Part shown: in pieces, positions 3,527-11,635 of the stretch
Layout: every line of letters begins with the position of its first letter
How positions within the stretch are numbered: position 1 is the first letter of the stretch
DNA from: Burkholderiales bacterium
GTDB taxonomy: Bacteria; Pseudomonadota; Gammaproteobacteria; Burkholderiales; Burkholderiaceae_C
DNA length: 64,000 nucleotides
NCBI GenBank assembly: GCA_038250795.1
Contig: JBBSBZ010000001.1
Location: 2,842-66,841, forward strand
Reading direction: 5' to 3'
The notes under the pieces: generated by a model
The model's database searches: none
What the model was told of the DNA's origin: nothing
What the model saw: only the letters and a program-made list of their open reading frames with translations
Made by a program: the position numbers and the translations under genes

Positions 3527-4273
3527 TCAGGGCGCCGAAGGTCCCTGGAATCCGCGCGCCCGATAGGTGAGGACGAGCGTGTCGCGGTGACCGTCGGCAG
3601 CGATCGGCTGGATCGGGGTGCTCTCGTGGACGACGCGGGCGTCGTCGAGAACGAGCGCCGTCCACGGCTCGAGCATCGTGAAGCGCAGCCCTTGGGGTCC
3701 GTCGGCGGCGAACACGCGGGTCTCGCCCCCCTTGATGCCCAGGCGATCGACGAGCACGACGGCGACGAGGTCGACACCGTCGCGGTGCGCACCTTCGGGC
3801 GTCGGCCGGCCGATGCCGTCGGTGGTATCGATGCGGAACTGGTGCGCCTCGACGTACCACTTCTGCTGGCCTCGGTACGACGACGCGAGCTTCGCGAACG
3901 ACACGAGCATCCGCCGCCACGCCGGCGCCGCGAGCACCGCCTCGTCGACCGGATCGAACCACCGTTCGATGCCGCCGTGCAGCGCGTTGTATTCGACCGG
4001 CTGCCAGTGCGCCCGCTGCTCGACGAGCTGCACCGAATCGCCGTCGATGACGAGGCTGGCGTGGCGGCGCCGGCGATAGTGGCCGCCGTCACGCAGGTGG
4101 GCGTCGGGCGGCAACGAATCCCACGAAGGTCGCAGCGCGTCGAGCGCGCCGAGGGTCGCCCCGGCGAAGCGCGCGAACGCGGCGGGCGCGAGCAGGGCAT
4201 GCCCGCTCGCCTTGAGCGTCTCGACGAGAGCGGCGGGCTCGGTCGTCGGCACGCCGAGCGGCGCCGAGCTCAT
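3527..4273 (-). CDS. 2OG-Fe(II) dioxygenase family protein (BsmA/PF10014-like)
   Basis: YRRRRH, HQFRI, PTPEGAHRDG (HxD), HESTPI and RDTLVLTY motifs. Confidence 0.85.
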   Translation of the reverse strand: MSSAPLGVPTTEPAALVETLKASGHALLAPAAFARFAGATLGALDALRPSWDSLPPDAHLRDGGHYRRRRHASLVIDGDSVQLVEQRAHWQPVEYNALHGGIERWFDPVDEAVLAAPAWRRMLVSFAKLASSYRGQQKWYVEAHQFRIDTTDGIGRPTPEGAHRDGVDLVAVVLVDRLGIKGGETRVFAADGPQGLRFTMLEPWTALVLDDARVVHESTPIQPIAADGHRDTLVLTYRARGFQGPSAP

Positions 4274-5304
4274 CGGCCGTAGCGCTCGCGCGCGAGCTGC
4301 GCGCCCTTGGCCAGCGCGGCAAGCTTGGCCTCAGCCACCTCGCGGCGCATCGGCGCCAGGCCGCAGTTGGTGCACGGGAACAGGCGCTCGCGCGGCACGA
4401 AACGCAAGGCGCTGCCGATCGTGTCGGCGATCTCCTCGGGCGTCTCGATGACGTCGGAGGCGACGTCGATGACGCCGACCATGACGTCCTTGCCGTCGAG
4501 CAGGCGCATCAGCTCGGCCGGCACGTGTGAGTGGAAGCACTCGAGCGAGACCTGGTCGATCGAGCTCTTGGCGAGGGCGGGAAAGACCTGCTCGTACTGG
4601 CGCCACTGGCCGCCGAGGGTCTCCTTCCAGTCGATGTTGGCGCGGATGCCGTAGCCGTAGCAGATGTGGACGGCGGTCTTGCACGCGAGGCCTTCGGCCG
4701 CGCGCTCGAGCGCCGCGACGCCCCACTCGGCCGCGTCGGCCATGTAGACGTTGAACGCCGGCTCGTCGAACTGGACGATGTCGACGCCGTCGGCCTGCAG
4801 CGCGCGCGCTTCCTGATTGAGGAGCTCGGCGAAGGCGAAAGCCATCTTGATGCGGCCTTCCTTGCCGTCGCCGTAGAAGCGATCGGCCACGGTGTCGACG
4901 ATCGTCATCGGCCCGGGCAGCGTGAACTTCAGCGGCTTGGCGGTATGCGCGCGCGCGAGTCTCGCCTCGGCCTGGTGGACGCGGCCCGCGAGGCGCAACG
5001 GCCCGACGACCTGCGGCACCATCGCGTCGTAGCGGTTGTTGCGGATGCCCATCTTCACCTTGTGCTCGAAGTCGATGCCTTCGACGCGGGCGAGGAAGCC
5101 GTGCACGAAGTGCTGGCGCGACTGCTCGCCGTCGCCGACGATGTCGATGCCCGCGTCCTCCTGGACCTTCAGCCAGACCAGCGTGGCATCGGCCTTGGCG
5201 CGATCGAGCTCGGCGCCGCTCGACTTCCACTCCGGCCAGAGCTTCTCGGTCTCGGCCAGCCAGGAGGGTTTCGGCAGGCTGCCTGCGATCGCGGTCTCGA
5301 ACAT
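4270..5304 (-). CDS. Cobalamin-independent methionine synthase, single catalytic domain, MesD-like
   Basis: GSLPKPSWLAE, DGEQSRQHF, PGPMTI, QFDEPAFN, Zn ligands VHICYGY and PCTNCGL. RBS aaggag lies upstream of ATG 5304. Confidence 0.85.
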   Translation of the reverse strand: MFETAIAGSLPKPSWLAETEKLWPEWKSSGAELDRAKADATLVWLKVQEDAGIDIVGDGEQSRQHFVHGFLARVEGIDFEHKVKMGIRNNRYDAMVPQVVGPLRLAGRVHQAEARLARAHTAKPLKFTLPGPMTIVDTVADRFYGDGKEGRIKMAFAFAELLNQEARALQADGVDIVQFDEPAFNVYMADAAEWGVAALERAAEGLACKTAVHICYGYGIRANIDWKETLGGQWRQYEQVFPALAKSSIDQVSLECFHSHVPAELMRLLDGKDVMVGVIDVASDVIETPEEIADTIGSALRFVPRERLFPCTNCGLAPMRREVAEAKLAALAKGAQLARERYGR

Positions 5305-5419
5305 CAATGACTCCTTGCGTGCGGTGCGGCGTCAGGCGCGGCTGCGTGCCGTGTCGTCTTCATTATTGAACAGGCCCACATCGTCGTTGTCGGTCGCCGG
5401 CGCCTTGGCCGGCTCCGTT

Positions 5420-6430
5420 TCACCGGGGCGTGGACGGCGCTTCGAGGTCGAATGCCTGCCCGAGCAACGCGTACGACGTCCGCCGCACCGCGGGATCGTG
5501 GGCCCAGGTGTTGACGACGACCTCGTCGAGCCCGAACGCATCGACCAGCCGATCGATCTTTTCGGCGACTGTCTTCGGCGAGCCGACGAAAGCGAGCTGG
5601 CGCATCGACGCGAGCCCCTGCTCCTCGGCGGCATCGAAGCCGCGAGCCGCGATGACGTCGGGCGACTGCAAGGGCCCAAGCACGCCGCGGCCGCGGTCGA
5701 TGCGCCAGCGGTCGCGCGACAGGGCGTGGTGCTGCGCCTCCTCGTCGCTGCCTGCGACGAGTGCCCAGATGCAGAGCGTGGCCTGCGGCTTGGGGTGGCG
5801 CTCGCTCGGCTGGTAGAGGCGCCGGTAGAGCGCCAGCGCCTGCTCCGCCCCCTGCCCGTCGGTGAAGAAGTAGGCGAAGGCATAAGGCAGCCCGAAGTGC
5901 GCGGCGAGCTGCGCGCCGTAGTCGGAGCTGCCGAGGATCCAGATCTCCGGCGCGTGCGGGCCGAGCGGATGGGCAGTGATGCCGGCATGGCGGCCCTCAC
6001 CCGTCCATGCGAGCAGGTCGCGCACCTGGACCGGGAAGTCGTCGGCGGCATGGGACGCGTTGGGATTGAGCGCTCGGGCCGTACGCATGTCGCCACCCGG
6101 CGCGCGGCCGACGCCGAGGTCGATGCGGCCGGGCGCGAGTGCCTCGAGGACGCGGAACTGCTCGGCGACCTTGAGCGCGCTGTAGTGCGGCAGCATGACG
6201 CCGGCGCTGCCGATGCGGATCGACGACGTGCGCGCCGCGATCGCCGCCATCAGGATCTCGGGCGCGCTGCCGACGATCGTCGGCAGGCCGTGGTGCTCGC
6301 TGACCCAGAAGCGCGAGTAGCCGATCCGCTCGCAATGCTCGGCGAGCGAGACGGTATCGCGGATGGCGGCGTCTTCGCTGCTGCCGGCGAGCGACACCGA
6401 CTGGTCGAGGACGGAGAGCTTCAGTGCCAT
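5420..6430 (-). CDS. LLM class (luciferase-like) flavin-dependent oxidoreductase
   Basis: LSVLDQS, RFWVSEHH, RIGSAGVMLPHYSALKVAEQF and RIDLGVGRAPG motifs. Confidence 0.9.
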   Translation of the reverse strand: MALKLSVLDQSVSLAGSSEDAAIRDTVSLAEHCERIGYSRFWVSEHHGLPTIVGSAPEILMAAIAARTSSIRIGSAGVMLPHYSALKVAEQFRVLEALAPGRIDLGVGRAPGGDMRTARALNPNASHAADDFPVQVRDLLAWTGEGRHAGITAHPLGPHAPEIWILGSSDYGAQLAAHFGLPYAFAYFFTDGQGAEQALALYRRLYQPSERHPKPQATLCIWALVAGSDEEAQHHALSRDRWRIDRGRGVLGPLQSPDVIAARGFDAAEEQGLASMRQLAFVGSPKTVAEKIDRLVDAFGLDEVVVNTWAHDPAVRRTSYALLGQAFDLEAPSTPR

Positions 6431-6432
6431 GG

Positions 6433-6915
6433 TCAGCCCTCGGGATGCGTGGGATCGATCCAGCGGACCGTGTCGGGTTTCTCGACCGGCTCGATGTCGA
6501 TGTTGACGGCGACCGCCTCGCCGTCGCTGCGACACAGCACGCACTCGAGCGTCTCCGTGGCGCTCGCATTGATCTCCTGGTGCGGCACGTAGGGCGGCAC
6601 GTAGATGAAGTCGCCCGGTCCGGCCTCGGCGACGAACTCGAGGCGATCGCCCCAGCGCATGCGCGCCCTGCCCTTGACGACGTAGATCACGCTCTCGAGC
6701 GGGCCGTGGTGGTGCGCGCCGGTCTTGGCGTCGGGGTGGATGTGCACGGTGCCGGCCCAGAGCTTCTGCGCGCCGACCCGTGCGAAGTTGATGGCCGCCT
6801 TGCGGTCCATGCCGGCCGTCTGGGCCGTGTTCGCATCGAGCTGGTCGGCGGCGATGACGCGAACGCCATCGTGCTGCCAGCGCTTGTCTGTCGTGGCGGT
6901 GGTCTTCCCGGTCAT
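6433..6915 (-). CDS. Cupin domain protein
   Basis: TGAHHHGPLESVIYVVKG and GDFIYVPPYVPHQE cupin motifs. Stop is 2 nt before the LLM start. Confidence 0.85.
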   Translation of the reverse strand: MTGKTTATTDKRWQHDGVRVIAADQLDANTAQTAGMDRKAAINFARVGAQKLWAGTVHIHPDAKTGAHHHGPLESVIYVVKGRARMRWGDRLEFVAEAGPGDFIYVPPYVPHQEINASATETLECVLCRSDGEAVAVNIDIEPVEKPDTVRWIDPTHPEG

Positions 6916-7126
6916 TTCTGGATACTCCTGGAGCGAGCGCTGCGATGCAGGGTCGTGTACATTAGCGGCACAGTTATACGCAAGACAGTGGTTGTTCGTG
7001 ATTCTCGTTCTACCCCCGCGGTCCTCGCGGCGGGCCACCTGAAATCCCCCTGATCGGTTCTTGAGTGTCGCTGCATGCGCCGCATGTTGCTGCGCATTCA
7101 TTTCAATCGTAGACAGGATATTTTTT

Positions 7127-7339
7127 ATGACGACCCAAACCGGAACCGTGAAGTGGTTCAACGAAAGCAAGGGCTTCGGCTTCATCGCGCAAGACGCGGG
7201 CGGCGCCGACCTCTTCGCCCACTTCCGTGACATCCAGGGCAACGGATTCAAGACGCTCGCCGAGAACCAGCGCGTCGAATTCGAAGTGAAGCAGGGCCAG
7301 AAGGGCCTGCAGGCCGCGAACATCCGCGTCCTCGCCTGA
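7127..7339 (+). CDS. cspA: Cold-shock protein (CspA family)
   Basis: [15 protein letters not shown] (RNP1) and DLFAHF (RNP2); 70 aa. Confidence 0.95.
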
Positions 7340-7375
7340 TTCGCTATTCGAACCGGAGCTTCTCCGGAGAAAATG

Positions 7376-7401
7376 CCGCGGCACCTGCCGCGGTTTTTTT
7401 T
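7376..7401 (+). terminator. Rho-independent terminator of csp
   Basis: Stem ccgcggc-acct-gccgcgg followed by 8 T. A second hairpin ccggag-ctt-ctccgg lies at 7353-7367. Confidence 0.85.
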
Positions 7402-8542: not shown

Positions 8543-11500
8543 GTGGCTGAGTTGCCTGCCGACTTCCTCCAGGCGCTGGTCGCGCAGAGCCGTGACCTGC
8601 TCGTCGTCAGCGACGCGAGCGGCGCCGTCCTCTGGAGCAATGAGCGCTTCTCGGGCACGACCGGCGCGATCGGTCGACCCGAGGCGACGCTGCTGGACTT
8701 CACGCCGGCCGGCGCGGCCGGTTCGGCCAGCCGCCTCTCGATCGCACGCATGCTGAGCGCGCATGGGCCGGACTCCGGCAGGTTCGAGCTGCGCAGCGCG
8801 GCAGGAGAACCGGTATGGGTCGACGCGCACTCGTCGTGGTTCTCGGGATGCATTCTCTGGACGCTCATCGAAGTCACTCACGAGAAGGCGCTCGAAGAGC
8901 GCGCGGCCCGGCAGGACGAGCTGCTCGAGACGGCGCAGGAATTCGGTCGGCTCGGCATCTGGGAGCGACAGATCCCCTCCGGCGAAGGGCGTTGGGACAA
9001 GCACGTGTTCAGGTTCTGGGACCTCGACCCGTCGGCTGGTACGCCGAGCTTCGCGGACGCGATCGAGCAGATGCATCCCGAAGACCGCAAGAGCACGATC
9101 TACCCGGAGTCCACCCGGCGCGCGGGCCGCTATGCGCAGCGCTTTCGGGTGATGCAGCGCGACGGTTCGACGCGCTGGATCCACTCGCAGTGGGAAGTGC
9201 GAAACGGTCCGCGAGGCACGCCGGATCGGGCGCTCGGCGTCATGCTCGACGACACCGAGGCGTACGACGCGGCGCGGGCCCTGAGTGACGTCAACGCCCA
9301 GCTCAAGATGGCGGTCGAGCTCGGCAAGATCGCGATCTGGCGCCACGACCTTCGTACCGGTCGCATGTACTACAGCCATCGCGCCTTCGATCTGCTCGGC
9401 ATGCCGCCGCGGCCGGAGGGCCTGTCGATCGACGAGGTGCGCTCCTTCATCCACCCCGACGACATCCCGAGCGTGATCGCCTCGGCGGAGCAGGCCCTCG
9501 CGTCGACCGAGCCGACCGACCTCGAGGCGCGCTATCGCCGCATCGACGGCACCTGGCGCTACGTGCTGTCGCGCCGCGTCGTCGAGCGCAGCGCCACCGG
9601 CGAGCCGCTCGCCTTCGTCGGCGTAGCTCTCGACATGACCGAGCGGGTCGAGCACCTGCGCCACGCCGAGGAGCTCGCGCGCCGCCTCGAAGCCGCCTCG
9701 CGGGCGGCCGGCGTCGGCATCTGGACCACCACGATCGGACGGGGCGGCGCCGACTGGAACGCGCAGATGTTCGAGCTCTTCGAACTCTGCACGCCGCCGC
9801 ACCCGCCAACTTTCGGCGAGTGGATCGCGAGCTCTGTGCATCCAGACGATCGCGATCGCGTCAAGCAGATGTCGCGGTCCTACTTCCTCTCCGGCGAGGG
9901 CCCGTTCGAACTCGAGTTCCGGGCCCTGCGCCGCGACGGCAGCGTGCGCTGGATCGTGATGCGCGCCGACGTCGATCGCGTCCACGTCGCCCAGCGCCGC
10001 ATCCTCGGCGTGGCCATGGACGTCACCGAGCACCACCGCGCGCTCGAGGCGCTGCGCGAGGCGAGCCAGCGCGCGGCCCTGATCACGCGCCACGCCGGCA
10101 TCGGCACCTGGGAGAGCGATCTCGGCGGCGGGCAGCACTGGGACGCGCAGATGTTCCAGCTGCGCGGACTCCAGCCCCGCGAAGCCGCCCTGACACGCGA
10201 GGAGCGGCTCGCGCTCGTCCATCCCGACGACGTCGCCGTTCTCATCGACTCGCTCGCCGGCACTCCCGAGGCCCACCTCGCGTCGGCGTACGAGTTCCGC
10301 GTCTGCCTCCCCGACGGCAGCTACCGCTGGCTCGCGTCGCGCTCCGCCGACGTGCTCGACGAGGCCGGACGCCCGGCGCGGCGCGTCGGCGTCAACTGGG
10401 ACATCACCGAGAGCAAGAACGCCGAGATGGTGCGCCAGCAGGCGGCGCTCGCCGAGCGCGGCATCCAGGCCAAGTCGCAGTTCCTCTCTCGCATGAGCCA
10501 CGAGCTGCGCACGCCGCTGAACGCGGTGCTCGGCTTCACCCAGCTGCTCCAGATCGAGGCCCGCAAGTCGGGTCAGGCCGAGCAGCTCGCCAAGCTCGAG
10601 CACGTGCGGGCCGCCGGCGACCACCTGCTGTCGCTCATCAACGACGTGCTCGACCTGTCGGGGCTCGAAGCCGGCGAGATCAAGCTTTCGCTGCGGCCGG
10701 TCGATCTGGGCATGCTCGTGCGCCAGTCGCTGCCGCTGCTGCACTCGCTCGCGCTGCAGCACGACGTCGTCATCGAGACGAGACGGGCCGAGGGCGTCGC
10801 GCGGGGCGACCCGACCCGACTTCGGCAAGTGCTCATCAACCTGCTTTCCAACGGGATCAAGTACAACCGGCGCGGTGGCCGCGTCGTCGTCGAGACCTGG
10901 GCCGACGACAGCGAGGCGACGCTCAGGGTGAGCGACACCGGGCGCGGCCTCAACGAGGCGCAGATCGTCGACCTGTTCGAGCCCTTCAACCGCTTCGGCG
11001 TCGAGCACGAAGGCATCGAAGGCACCGGCATCGGCCTGACGATCGTCAAGGCGCTCGTCGACGGGATGGGTGGCCGGATCGCGGTCGAGAGCGAGCCTGG
11101 ACGCGGAACCACGTTCGACGTGACCCTGTCGGCGCTGTCCTCGGCTTCCTTCGCGGAGGGATCGGCCGTGGCCTCTGCGCCTGCGGCGCTCGCCGACACG
11201 GGCTTCGACGCCCTCGGCGGCACGGTGCTCTACATCGAGGACAACCACGTCAACGTGCTCCTCGTCGAAGAGCTCGTGAGAAGCCTGGGTGACTTCAACG
11301 TCGTCTCGGAGACGACCGGGGCTGCCGGCGTCGCGCGCGCGACCACCCTGCAACCCGATCTGGTCCTGGTCGACATGCAGCTGCCCGACTTCGACGGCTA
11401 CGAGGTGCTCCGGCGCATTCGCGCCGACCCGGCGACGCAAACGATCCCGTGCGTCGCCCTCTCCGCCAACGCCATGCGCGAGGACATCGAGCGCGGCCTT

Positions 11501-11635
11501 GCGGCAGGTTTCGCCGACTACTGGACCAAGCCGATCGACTTCGGCGTCTTCATCGCCGCGCTGCAGCGCTTCTTCCCGGCGCAAGCCCTCGCTCAGGCGC
11601 CGGCCGAAAGGAAGCAGGGCGCGGCGGGCGCGTGA
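8543..11635 (+). CDS. Cytoplasmic multi-PAS hybrid histidine kinase / response regulator
   Basis: Four PAS/PAC repeats (LGIW, IAIW, VGIW, IGTW ... HPED/HPDD), H-box SHELRTPLN, N/G boxes NLLSNGIKYN, DTGRG and GTGIGL, and a C-terminal receiver (EDN, DMQLPD, KP). Confidence 0.92.
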   Translation: MAELPADFLQALVAQSRDLLVVSDASGAVLWSNERFSGTTGAIGRPEATLLDFTPAGAAGSASRLSIARMLSAHGPDSGRFELRSAAGEPVWVDAHSSWFSGCILWTLIEVTHEKALEERAARQDELLETAQEFGRLGIWERQIPSGEGRWDKHVFRFWDLDPSAGTPSFADAIEQMHPEDRKSTIYPESTRRAGRYAQRFRVMQRDGSTRWIHSQWEVRNGPRGTPDRALGVMLDDTEAYDAARALSDVNAQLKMAVELGKIAIWRHDLRTGRMYYSHRAFDLLGMPPRPEGLSIDEVRSFIHPDDIPSVIASAEQALASTEPTDLEARYRRIDGTWRYVLSRRVVERSATGEPLAFVGVALDMTERVEHLRHAEELARRLEAASRAAGVGIWTTTIGRGGADWNAQMFELFELCTPPHPPTFGEWIASSVHPDDRDRVKQMSRSYFLSGEGPFELEFRALRRDGSVRWIVMRADVDRVHVAQRRILGVAMDVTEHHRALEALREASQRAALITRHAGIGTWESDLGGGQHWDAQMFQLRGLQPREAALTREERLALVHPDDVAVLIDSLAGTPEAHLASAYEFRVCLPDGSYRWLASRSADVLDEAGRPARRVGVNWDITESKNAEMVRQQAALAERGIQAKSQFLSRMSHELRTPLNAVLGFTQLLQIEARKSGQAEQLAKLEHVRAAGDHLLSLINDVLDLSGLEAGEIKLSLRPVDLGMLVRQSLPLLHSLALQHDVVIETRRAEGVARGDPTRLRQVLINLLSNGIKYNRRGGRVVVETWADDSEATLRVSDTGRGLNEAQIVDLFEPFNRFGVEHEGIEGTGIGLTIVKALVDGMGGRIAVESEPGRGTTFDVTLSALSSASFAEGSAVASAPAALADTGFDALGGTVLYIEDNHVNVLLVEELVRSLGDFNVVSETTGAAGVARATTLQPDLVLVDMQLPDFDGYEVLRRIRADPATQTIPCVALSANAMREDIERGLAAGFADYWTKPIDFGVFIAALQRFFPAQALAQAPAERKQGAAGA

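What the first reader, a model, noticed from the sequence alone, without database searches (positions are those of the whole stretch)
3527..5304. MesD-like methionine synthase with no mesX, translationally coupled to a 2OG-Fe(II) dioxygenase
Seen: a single-domain MetE-like enzyme with MesD-type motifs (GSLPKPSWLAE, VHICYGY, PCTNCG). Its stop overlaps the ATG of a PF10014-like 2OG-Fe dioxygenase (ATGA at 4270-4273), and no DUF1852/MesX-like ORF flanks it. Known: MesD is a folate-independent methionine synthase reported to need O2 and the putative oxygenase MesX, usually encoded next to it. Inference: the coupled dioxygenase (or the upstream flavin monooxygenase) may replace MesX in generating the methyl donor, giving a variant O2-dependent methionine synthesis route.
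Basis: partly seen in the sequence, partly recalled or inferred. Interest (0 to 1): 0.7.

Follow-up and report, generated by a model that had tools for sequence, protein, structure and literature searches.

The report
MesD methionine synthase lacking MesX
A real MesD-type, vitamin-B12-independent methionine synthase overlaps an iron/2-oxoglutarate dioxygenase gene, but lacking the helper MesX is normal for this Burkholderiales branch, and the dioxygenase is very unlikely to be MesX's replacement.

Summary
Window 4270-5304(-) encodes a 344-aa single-domain MesD-type enzyme: NF006589 566 bits, and 57% identity to Shewanella MesD (PDB 3RPD). Its stop overlaps (ATGA) the start of a 248-aa PF10014 dioxygenase at 3527-4273(-). 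No MesX (PF08908) was found in the genome.

The interpretation mostly fails.
- MesX absence is the rule in this MesD subfamily. 60 of 80 close relatives and 58 of 68 order-level genomes lack it, including single-contig genomes.
- The PF10014 ortholog (that of PDB 3PL0) is single-copy in 18 of 20 MesX-positive relatives.
- It is absent from 48 of 58 MesX-less genomes across the order.
- The tight mesD-PF10014 pairing is confined to one Sphaerotilaceae clade plus a few relatives. It looks like compaction of an older LLM-mesD...PF10014 neighbourhood.
- The upstream MsnO8-type luciferase-like monooxygenase associates better: orthologs occur only beside mesD and only in MesX-less genomes. But it is present in only 24 of 60 of them.

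All 140 sampled MesDs keep the zinc and homocysteine ligands. Every sampled genome except one MAG keeps MetH.

Most likely this is a MesX-independent, B12-independent back-up methionine synthase with an unknown methyl donor. The dioxygenase is a co-expressed accessory enzyme.

The parts
4270..5304 (-). mesD-type core (single-barrel) homocysteine S-methyltransferase, 344 aa, subfamily II
   Evidence: PF01717 only. NF006589 566.6 bits against cut-off 392. 423 bits and 57% id to PDB 3RPD. Zn ligands H213, C215, E255 and C314, and homocysteine ligands S9, E60, D180 and Y218, are invariant in 140 homologs.
3527..4273 (-). PF10014 Fe(II)/2-oxoglutarate dioxygenase, 248 aa, ortholog of MpDO (PDB 3PL0); start overlaps the mesD stop (ATGA 4270-4273)
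   Evidence: PF10014 225.8 bits. 291.6 bits to 3PL0. H163, D165, H216 and R230 are invariant in 120 homologs. The overlap is visible in the sequence and in L141 and L142.
5420..6430 (-). MsnO8/YhbW-type luciferase-like flavin-dependent oxidoreductase (LLM), 336 aa; 115-nt gap to mesD
   Evidence: PF00296 137.9 bits. TIGR03558 376.9 bits. Start and stop read from the sequence. Orthologs >=57% id are found only beside mesD.
6433..6915 (-). small cupin, 160 aa; stop is 2 nt before the LLM start (TGAccATG)
   Evidence: Cupin_2 39 bits. Boundaries read from the sequence. Called as 160 aa in L141 and L142. 81-91% identical orthologs in 47 of 80 related genomes.
5305..5419 (-). LLM-mesD intergenic region with AAGGAG RBS and a TTCAATAATGAA palindrome unique to this genome
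   Evidence: Sequence. No sigma-70-like promoter and no minus-strand terminator were found. The palindrome is absent from 139 other mesD upstream regions. No Rfam match.

Best explanation
The 344-aa protein is a genuine MesD-family zinc-dependent homocysteine S-methyltransferase. It belongs to a large Burkholderiales subfamily, here called 'II', about 55% identical to the characterised MesX-linked MesDs. Members of this subfamily usually live without MesX.

In this Sphaerotilaceae lineage it is the third gene of a same-strand string cupin-LLM-mesD-PF10014. The last two genes are translationally coupled.

It most likely acts as a cobalamin-independent back-up to the genome's split MetH. It would methylate homocysteine with a donor that does not require MesX; the donor's identity is unknown.

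The PF10014 enzyme is the lineage's single-copy ortholog of MpDO (PDB 3PL0). It is an intact Fe/2OG dioxygenase from a family whose characterised members oxidise free L-amino acids, including L-Met. It is co-expressed with mesD here because an older, looser LLM-mesD...PF10014 neighbourhood was compacted. It is an accessory or merely co-regulated enzyme, not the generator of the methyl donor.

Shown: family assignments, intact catalytic residues, gene order and overlap, absence of MesX, phyletic patterns. Inferred: in-vivo methionine synthase role, MesX independence, co-transcription, and the substrate class of the dioxygenase.
For: MesD identity:
- Family and structure hits.
- All 8 functional residues are invariant in 140 homologs.
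- The protein is 81% identical to Comamonadaceae MesDs that sit in LysR/FMN-reductase/MesX/MesD cassettes.
- Those MesX-linked proteins match the MesX-less consensus at all 38 subfamily-discriminating positions.

MesX absence is the norm:
- 60 of 80 close relatives lack it.
- 58 of 68 order-level MesD genomes lack it. These include three single-contig genomes (G124, G322, G392).

PF10014 is not MesX-specific:
- Present in 18 of 20 MesX-positive and 54 of 60 MesX-less relatives.
- Absent from 48 of 58 MesX-less order-level genomes.

Old neighbourhood:
- PF10014 lies <=11 nt from mesD in the window clade.
- It lies 93-833 nt away in the G470 genome (L088), Limnohabitans (L049), Hydrogenophaga and Methylibium loci.
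- It lies about 6-8 kb away in Ramlibacter/Caenimonas-type genomes, with unrelated genes between.
- It lies >60 kb away in MesX-positive genomes.

Split MetH is present in the window's genome and in 79 of 80 relatives. MetE is present in only 4.

A PF10014 member (IDO) acts on L-Met and other aliphatic amino acids (PMC13336071).
Against: - S. koreensis MesD alone does not complement E. coli metE (PMC7857596). A MesX-independent donor is therefore a postulate.
- No genome was found where subfamily II MesD is the only methionine synthase. Its in-vivo role is unproven.
- An orphan core-MetE homolog in Phaeobacter does not rescue methionine auxotrophy (PMC12478193).
- A 4-nt overlap kept across about 10 species-level genomes, and near-adjacency in four separate MesD clades, argues that the mesD-PF10014 link is selected rather than accidental.
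- No transcript data could be found; only DNA metagenomes hold the locus.
Confidence: 0.5

Rival explanations
1. The upstream MsnO8-type luciferase-like flavin monooxygenase, perhaps with the cupin, is the functional analogue of MesX in this lineage. It would use O2 and reduced flavin to make the methyl donor for MesD. PF10014 is a bystander or auxiliary.
For: - LLM orthologs (>=57% id) occur in 24 of 60 MesX-less relatives and 0 of 20 MesX-positive ones. They are always next to mesD or within about 1.5 kb upstream.
- The LLM occupies the position directly upstream of mesD that MesX occupies in canonical cassettes.
- MesX is thought to be flavin- and O2-dependent and travels with an FMN reductase (PMC7857596).
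- An earlier scan note (e1-2485303) independently proposed this idea.
Against: - 36 of 60 MesX-less relatives have only about 40%-identical LLM paralogs, which MesX-positive genomes also have.
- Across the order, only 3 of 96 genes in the two positions upstream of MesX-less mesD are LLMs.
- In most sister genomes a DUF418 gene on the opposite strand separates the LLM from mesD.
- No dedicated flavin reductase is in the cluster.
Confidence: 0.17
2. One reading: the translationally coupled PF10014 Fe/2OG dioxygenase replaces MesX and generates the methyl donor in an O2-dependent reaction.
For: - ATGA overlap or a 7-11 nt gap is conserved in 16 sister loci.
- No MesX in these genomes.
- The Fe/2OG triad is intact.
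- Both MesX and PF10014 are O2-using enzymes.
Against: - Orthologs coexist with MesX in 18 of 20 MesX-positive relatives, far from mesD.
- 48 of 58 MesX-less MesD genomes in the order have no PF10014.
- 6 MesX-less close relatives lack it.
- The characterised family members seen here are amino-acid hydroxylases (the L-isoleucine hydroxylases; IDO's amino-acid substrates), which gives no evident route to an electrophilic methyl group.
Confidence: 0.06
3. Subfamily II MesD is not a de novo methionine synthase in vivo. It is part of an organosulfur or methylated-amino-acid salvage route, for example transferring a methyl group from an S- or N-methylated nutrient to homocysteine or a related thiol. 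The LLM, cupin and PF10014 would oxidise the substrate or the demethylated product.
For: - MetH is always present, so MesD-II is never needed for de novo synthesis.
- Neighbours across the order are dominated by transporters (DctM/Q, MFS, ABC). They include ABM monooxygenases (6), sulfatases (2), sulfur transport proteins (2), GST (2) and a Cys/Met PLP enzyme (1).
- There is no B12 or SAM riboswitch near 24 loci.
- A PF10014 enzyme (IDO) accepts L-Met as a substrate.
- Doubts about orphan core-MetE function in aerobes have been published.
Against: - The homocysteine/methionine-binding residues, including the MesD-specific Tyr, are invariant.
- MesX-linked members of the same subfamily are 81-96% identical, with no specificity changes.
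- Neighbour families are heterogeneous, with none in more than about 7% of the neighbour genes scanned.
Confidence: 0.2
4. The mesD-PF10014 adjacency is functionally meaningless: two unrelated conserved genes were brought together by deletion.
For: - Intervening genes in Ramlibacter-type loci are unrelated: TctC receptors, an EgtB-like gene, DUF427 and a hemerythrin.
- PF10014 is retained in genomes irrespective of its linkage to mesD.
Against: The overlap is maintained across many species-level genomes. Proximity (<1 kb) recurs in four separate MesD clades.
Confidence: 0.3

Closest known systems
MesD/MesX O2-dependent, folate- and B12-independent methionine synthase (A. baylyi ACIAD3523/3524; S. 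koreensis; Shewanella MesD PDB 3RPD; Price, Deutschbauer & Arkin 2021, PMC7857596)
   Same: - Single MetE-C-terminal-type barrel of about 340 aa.
- Same NCBIfam equivalog model (NF006589).
- All four Zn ligands, the three homocysteine ligands and the MesD-specific Tyr are conserved.
- Coexists with MetH, as 75% of published MesD genomes do.
   Different: - Only 57% identical to 3RPD, whereas canonical MesDs are 86-87% identical to it.
- No MesX and no adjacent FMN reductase or LysR regulator.
- Differs from canonical MesD at 38 subfamily-discriminating positions.
- Partnered instead with PF10014, an LLM and a cupin.
Comamonadaceae MesX-linked subfamily II MesD cassettes (e.g. Delftia tsuruhatensis NBRC 16741, L054)
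   Same: 81% identical MesD, with the same residues at all 38 subfamily-discriminating positions. Same bacterial family.
   Different: - Those loci carry LysR, FMN reductase and MesX directly upstream (the Delftia locus L054 itself has a LacI-type regulator upstream and no FMN-reductase match).
- Their PF10014 ortholog lies >60 kb away.
- They lack the LLM ortholog.
MpDO / Mpe_A2762 (PDB 3PL0), PF10014 dioxygenase of Methylibium petroleiphilum; IDO-type free L-amino-acid hydroxylases (PDB 6LNH)
   Same: 291.6 bits to 3PL0. Identical HxD...H...R motifs. Same length and fold family.
   Different: No substrate for 3PL0 or this ortholog group turned up in the PDB entry name or the papers read. Only 21.7 bits to IDO. 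Here it is translationally coupled to mesD.
MsnO8 / E. coli YhbW group-1 luciferase-like oxidoreductases (TIGR03558)
   Same: Full-length match at 377 bits.
   Different: The match is to a subfamily-level model that assigns no specific function, and the score to the E. coli-type equivalog model NF007802 (239 bits) is below its 540 cut-off. This ortholog group is found only beside MesX-less mesD.

Membership tests
MesD (core methionine synthase family D) | Single MetE C-terminal-type catalytic barrel, no folate-binding N-terminal domain | tested here: met
   PF01717 covers residues 2-335. PF08267 scores only 16.7 bits, below its cut-off.
MesD (core methionine synthase family D) | Scores as MesD rather than MetE or MesA-C by curated HMM | tested here: met
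   NF006589 gives 566.6 bits against cut-off 392. NF003317 (190), NF002119 (91) and TIGR01371 (75) are all below their cut-offs. On the same model, canonical MesD scores 709 and MesX-linked subfamily II scores 587.
MesD (core methionine synthase family D) | Price et al. operational threshold: BLASTp >=390 bits (~55% id) to ACIAD3523, or >=560 bits (~72% id) in the strict set | tested here: inconclusive
   The ACIAD3523 sequence was not at hand. As a proxy, the protein gives 423 bits and 57% id to the Shewanella MesD 3RPD. That is borderline for the loose threshold and would fail the strict one.
MesD (core methionine synthase family D) | Zn ligands His/Cys/Glu/Cys, and homocysteine ligands Ser/Glu/Asp plus the MesD-specific Tyr226 (3RPD numbering) | tested here: met
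   H213, C215, E255, C314 and S9, E60, D180, Y218 are invariant in all 140 aligned homologs.
MesD (core methionine synthase family D) | MesX (DUF1852, PF08908) encoded next to it, or at least in the genome | tested here: not met
   0 hits in the window's genome and in the 16 sister genomes. Positive controls gave E<1e-160.
MesD (core methionine synthase family D) | Methionine synthesis that needs O2 and MesX but not 5-methyl-THF or cobalamin | not testable with these tools
   Requires complementation or an enzyme assay.
PF10014 Fe(II)/2OG dioxygenases (BsmA/IDO/MpDO) | Family HMM match and HxD...H iron triad plus 2OG-binding Arg | tested here: met
   225.8 bits over profile positions 2-192 of 192. 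H163, D165, H216 and R230 are invariant in 120 homologs. 291.6 bits to 3PL0.
PF10014 Fe(II)/2OG dioxygenases (BsmA/IDO/MpDO) | Oxidation of a free L-amino acid | not testable with these tools
   Known only for distant members, such as IDO.
MsnO8-family LLM class oxidoreductase (TIGR03558) | Full-length HMM match above cut-off | tested here: met
   376.9 bits against cut-off 166.95.

The most novel reading that the evidence does not exclude
Subfamily II MesD still depends on an O2-dependent donor-generating partner, but that partner is interchangeable. MesX+FMN reductase would serve in one Comamonadaceae clade. The cupin/MsnO8-type flavin monooxygenase, and possibly the coupled PF10014 dioxygenase, would serve in the window's lineage. 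Other oxygenases would serve elsewhere. The locus would then be a non-orthologous replacement of MesX and a second handle on the still-unknown methyl donor of MesD-type methionine synthesis.
Probability: 0.15. Interest if true: 0.8.

Novelty: new variant of a known kind. Interest (0 to 1): 0.45.

Why it matters
The methyl donor of MesD-type methionine synthases is an open question, and MesX has been treated as obligatory.

This survey shows that a large, well-conserved MesD subfamily in Burkholderiales normally has no MesX: 58 of 68 sampled genomes. MesX-linked and MesX-less members are also nearly indistinguishable in sequence.

Two readings follow. Either these enzymes use a different, generally available donor, or the partner function is supplied by non-homologous proteins. 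Either answer would narrow the chemistry of the pathway.

It would also change how automated tools score B12-independent methionine synthesis, and with it N2O and B12 sensitivity, in soil and freshwater Betaproteobacteria.

The specific mesD-PF10014 pair gives a compact four-gene construct to test.

Tried and rejected
1. PF10014 as a MesX substitute. Rejected on phyletic grounds.
2. A search for any partner with a pattern complementary to MesX. None was cleanly complementary:
   - PF10014: 54 of 60 MesX-less versus 18 of 20 MesX-positive genomes.
   - Cupin: 43 of 60 versus 4 of 20.
   - LLM ortholog: 24 of 60 versus 0 of 20.
3. A neighbour census of 57 order-level MesX-less loci, 195 flanking genes. 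No dominant family emerged.
4. The idea that six small-genome Comamonadaceae MAGs rely on MesD alone. Rejected: they carry a three-piece MetH.
5. Riboswitch or RNA control. There is no Rfam hit upstream of mesD in the window or in 24 other loci.
6. A MetR-type box. The window's TTCAATAATGAA palindrome is not conserved in 139 other upstream regions.
7. Convergent 'MesX-adaptation' residues in MesD. None were found: 0 of 38 positions.
8. Transcript evidence for co-transcription. Only DNA metagenomes hold the locus.
9. The paper on 3PL0 (PMC3920835) is not held in the library. No paper in the library describes MesX-less MesD or a MesX mechanism.
10. My first single-linkage ORF clustering chained shadow ORFs. 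I replaced it with GC3-guided gene calls.
Full report
**What is in the sequence**

On the minus strand the window carries a same-strand string of four genes.
- Cupin: 6433-6915, 160 aa.
- Luciferase-like oxidoreductase (LLM): 5420-6430, 336 aa. It starts 2 nt after the cupin stop.
- A 115-nt spacer with an AAGGAG ribosome-binding site.
- MetE-like gene: 4270-5304, 344 aa.
- PF10014 gene: 3527-4273, 248 aa. Its ATG overlaps the MetE-like stop as ATGA.

A cspA-like gene diverges upstream, and a pfkB kinase converges downstream. A public assembly that encodes an identical PF10014 protein (L141) has the same five genes called independently, with the same 4-nt overlap. No sigma-70-like promoter or minus-strand terminator interrupts the string. 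A four-gene operon is therefore plausible but unproven. Only DNA metagenomes hold this sequence.

**What the proteins are**

The 344-aa protein:
- It matches only the catalytic MetE domain, PF01717.
- It scores 566.6 bits on NCBIfam NF006589 (cut-off 392). All MetE, MesA and MesB-type models fall below their cut-offs.
- Its best solved relative is the Shewanella MesD, PDB 3RPD, at 423 bits and 57% identity.
- The four zinc ligands are H213, C215, E255 and C314.
- The homocysteine/methionine ligands named by Price et al. (PMC7857596) are S9, E60, D180 and the MesD-specific Tyr, here Y218.
- All eight residues are invariant across the 140 homologs I aligned.

The 248-aa protein is a full-length PF10014 Fe/2OG dioxygenase at 225.8 bits. 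It scores 291.6 bits against PDB 3PL0, the Methylibium petroleiphilum protein MpDO. H163, D165, H216 and R230 are invariant in 120 homologs.

The upstream enzyme is an MsnO8/YhbW-type LLM, TIGR03558, 377 bits.

**MesX is absent, but that is the rule here**

PF08908 has no match in the window's assembly, which is 93.8% complete. The search is sensitive: it found MesX at E<1e-160 in 29 other genomes, plus one copy truncated by a contig end.
- Among the 80 genomes with the closest MesD homologs (77-95% identity), only 20 have MesX, always directly upstream of mesD. The other 60 have none.
- The 60 include isolates (Caenimonas koreensis, Ramlibacter sp. AN1133, Variovorax spp.) and a closed Comamonadaceae chromosome.
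- In an even sample of 401 genomes of the GTDB order, 68 besides the window's own carry a MesD homolog, and 58 of those lack MesX. Three of the 58 are single-contig genomes.

A tree of 140 MesDs shows three groups.
- Canonical, MesX-linked sequences, 86-87% identical to 3RPD.
- An intermediate MesX-less group.
- Beyond a long, fully supported branch, a large 'subfamily II' of 124 rows, 104 without MesX. The window's protein belongs here.

The 20 MesX-linked Comamonadaceae proteins form one clade nested deep inside subfamily II. They carry the subfamily II residue at all 38 positions that discriminate the subfamilies. They differ from the MesX-less consensus at only two C-terminal positions.

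Price et al. reported MesX in 395 of 399 proteomes. They used a cut-off of about 72% identity to the Acinetobacter enzyme, which would have excluded subfamily II. I found no paper describing MesX-less MesD.

**Is PF10014 the replacement?**

The linkage is real but local.
- In the window's clade of 17 MesD sequences, the window plus 16 fetched loci, PF10014 follows mesD with a -4 overlap or a 7-11 nt gap.
- It lies 93-833 nt downstream in the G470 genome (L088), Limnohabitans (L049), Hydrogenophaga and Methylibium loci.
- It lies about 6-8 kb downstream in Ramlibacter/Caenimonas-type genomes. In the one such locus annotated (L083), the genes between are TctC receptors, an EgtB-like gene, DUF427 and a hemerythrin.

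The phyletic pattern argues against replacement.
- Single-copy orthologs (54-83% identity) occur in 72 of 80 relatives.
- That includes 18 of the 20 MesX-positive genomes, where they lie tens of kilobases from mesD.
- Across the order, 48 of 58 MesX-less MesD genomes have no PF10014 homolog at all.

The dioxygenase is therefore neither specific to MesX-less genomes nor needed by most of them. That suggests a possible link through substrates, not through the methyl donor.

**The other neighbours**

- LLM orthologs (>=57% identity) occur in 24 of 60 MesX-less relatives and in none of the MesX-positive ones. They are always just upstream of mesD.
- In most sister genomes, however, a DUF418 gene on the opposite strand separates the LLM from mesD.
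- The remaining 36 MesX-less genomes have only about 40%-identical paralogs.
- The cupin is present in 43 of 60 MesX-less and 4 of 20 MesX-positive genomes.
- A census of 195 genes flanking 57 order-level MesX-less mesD genes found no dominant family. Counts were DctM 7, MFS 5-6, ABM monooxygenase 6 and LLM 3.

No candidate partner has a pattern strictly complementary to MesX.

**Physiological setting**

- The window's genome and 79 of 80 relatives have MetH, usually split in two. Six small genomes have it in three pieces.
- Full-length MetE is present in only four.
- MesD-II is therefore never demonstrably the sole synthase. This fits a B12-independent back-up role, but it also leaves room for a different in-vivo function.
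- No riboswitch lies near mesD in the window or in 24 other loci.
- A palindrome upstream of the window's mesD is not conserved.
- Published work questions whether orphan core-MetE homologs of aerobic bacteria make methionine at all (PMC12478193).

**Verdict**

The protein is a bona fide MesD-family enzyme of a subfamily that normally lacks MesX. The mesD-PF10014 coupling is a lineage-specific compaction of an older neighbourhood.

My odds:
- MesX-independent, B12-independent homocysteine methyltransferase with unknown donor, PF10014 as co-expressed accessory: about 0.5.
- LLM as a MesX analogue: about 0.17.
- PF10014 as the donor generator: about 0.06.
- A salvage role rather than de novo synthesis: about 0.2.

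Earlier notes from this scan had flagged MesX-less MesD beside a K+ channel and a serine hydrolase (e1-5188118). They had also proposed that different oxygenases replace MesX (e1-2485303). I saw the same K+ channel/serine hydrolase arrangement. I also tested the LLM part of the second idea.

Noticed in passing
window 7075-7401 (+): A cspA-like cold-shock gene (7127-7339, 70 aa) with a match to the Rfam cspA thermoregulator RF01766 (42 bits, below gathering score 78) spanning its 5' leader and coding region. It diverges from the cupin-LLM-mesD-PF10014 string.
   Followed up: no
window 8543-11635 (+): A 1030-aa hybrid sensor kinase with four PAS_3 domains, HisKA, HATPase and a receiver domain. 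It is conserved next to the same ADH gene in relative L142.
   Followed up: no
G032, G042, G050, G057, G069, G076 (e.g. G032:C20:114056-125786): Six small-genome Comamonadaceae MAGs encode MetH as three separate ORFs. The homocysteine, pterin and B12 domains lie within about 11 kb, and no reactivation-domain match was listed.
   Followed up: partly
L045, L053, L059: Three genomes, one a closed chromosome, sit inside the MesX-linked MesD clade; the L053 MesD is 96% identical to Delftia's. They have no MesX anywhere, which looks like recent MesX loss with MesD kept intact.
   Followed up: partly
L083 9543-13500 (G277:C8): An EgtB-like gene (DinB_2 + FGE-sulfatase, a sulfoxide-synthase architecture), DUF427 and a hemerythrin lie between mesD and its PF10014 ortholog in a family-f1 genome (G277) with the Ramlibacter-type gene arrangement.
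   Followed up: no
G234:C1:2175963-2176446: Two adjacent MesX fragments, one with an in-frame TGA. This is a MesX pseudogene about 425 kb from the intact mesX-mesD pair in the same closed genome.
   Followed up: no
L001 2914-4200 (-); L142 4669-5949 (-): A DUF418/YeiB-like membrane protein gene on the opposite strand splits cupin-LLM from mesD-PF10014 in most sister genomes. It is missing in the window and in L141.
   Followed up: partly
order-level loci L095, L101, L107, L108, L131, L137: A small gene of about 100-120 aa lies immediately downstream of MesX-less mesD on the opposite strand in these loci. The downstream-neighbour census counted six ABM-family monooxygenase (PF03992) matches, probably these genes; the census does not name its members. 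Sulfatase, sulfur-transport and GST genes also recur nearby.
   Followed up: no
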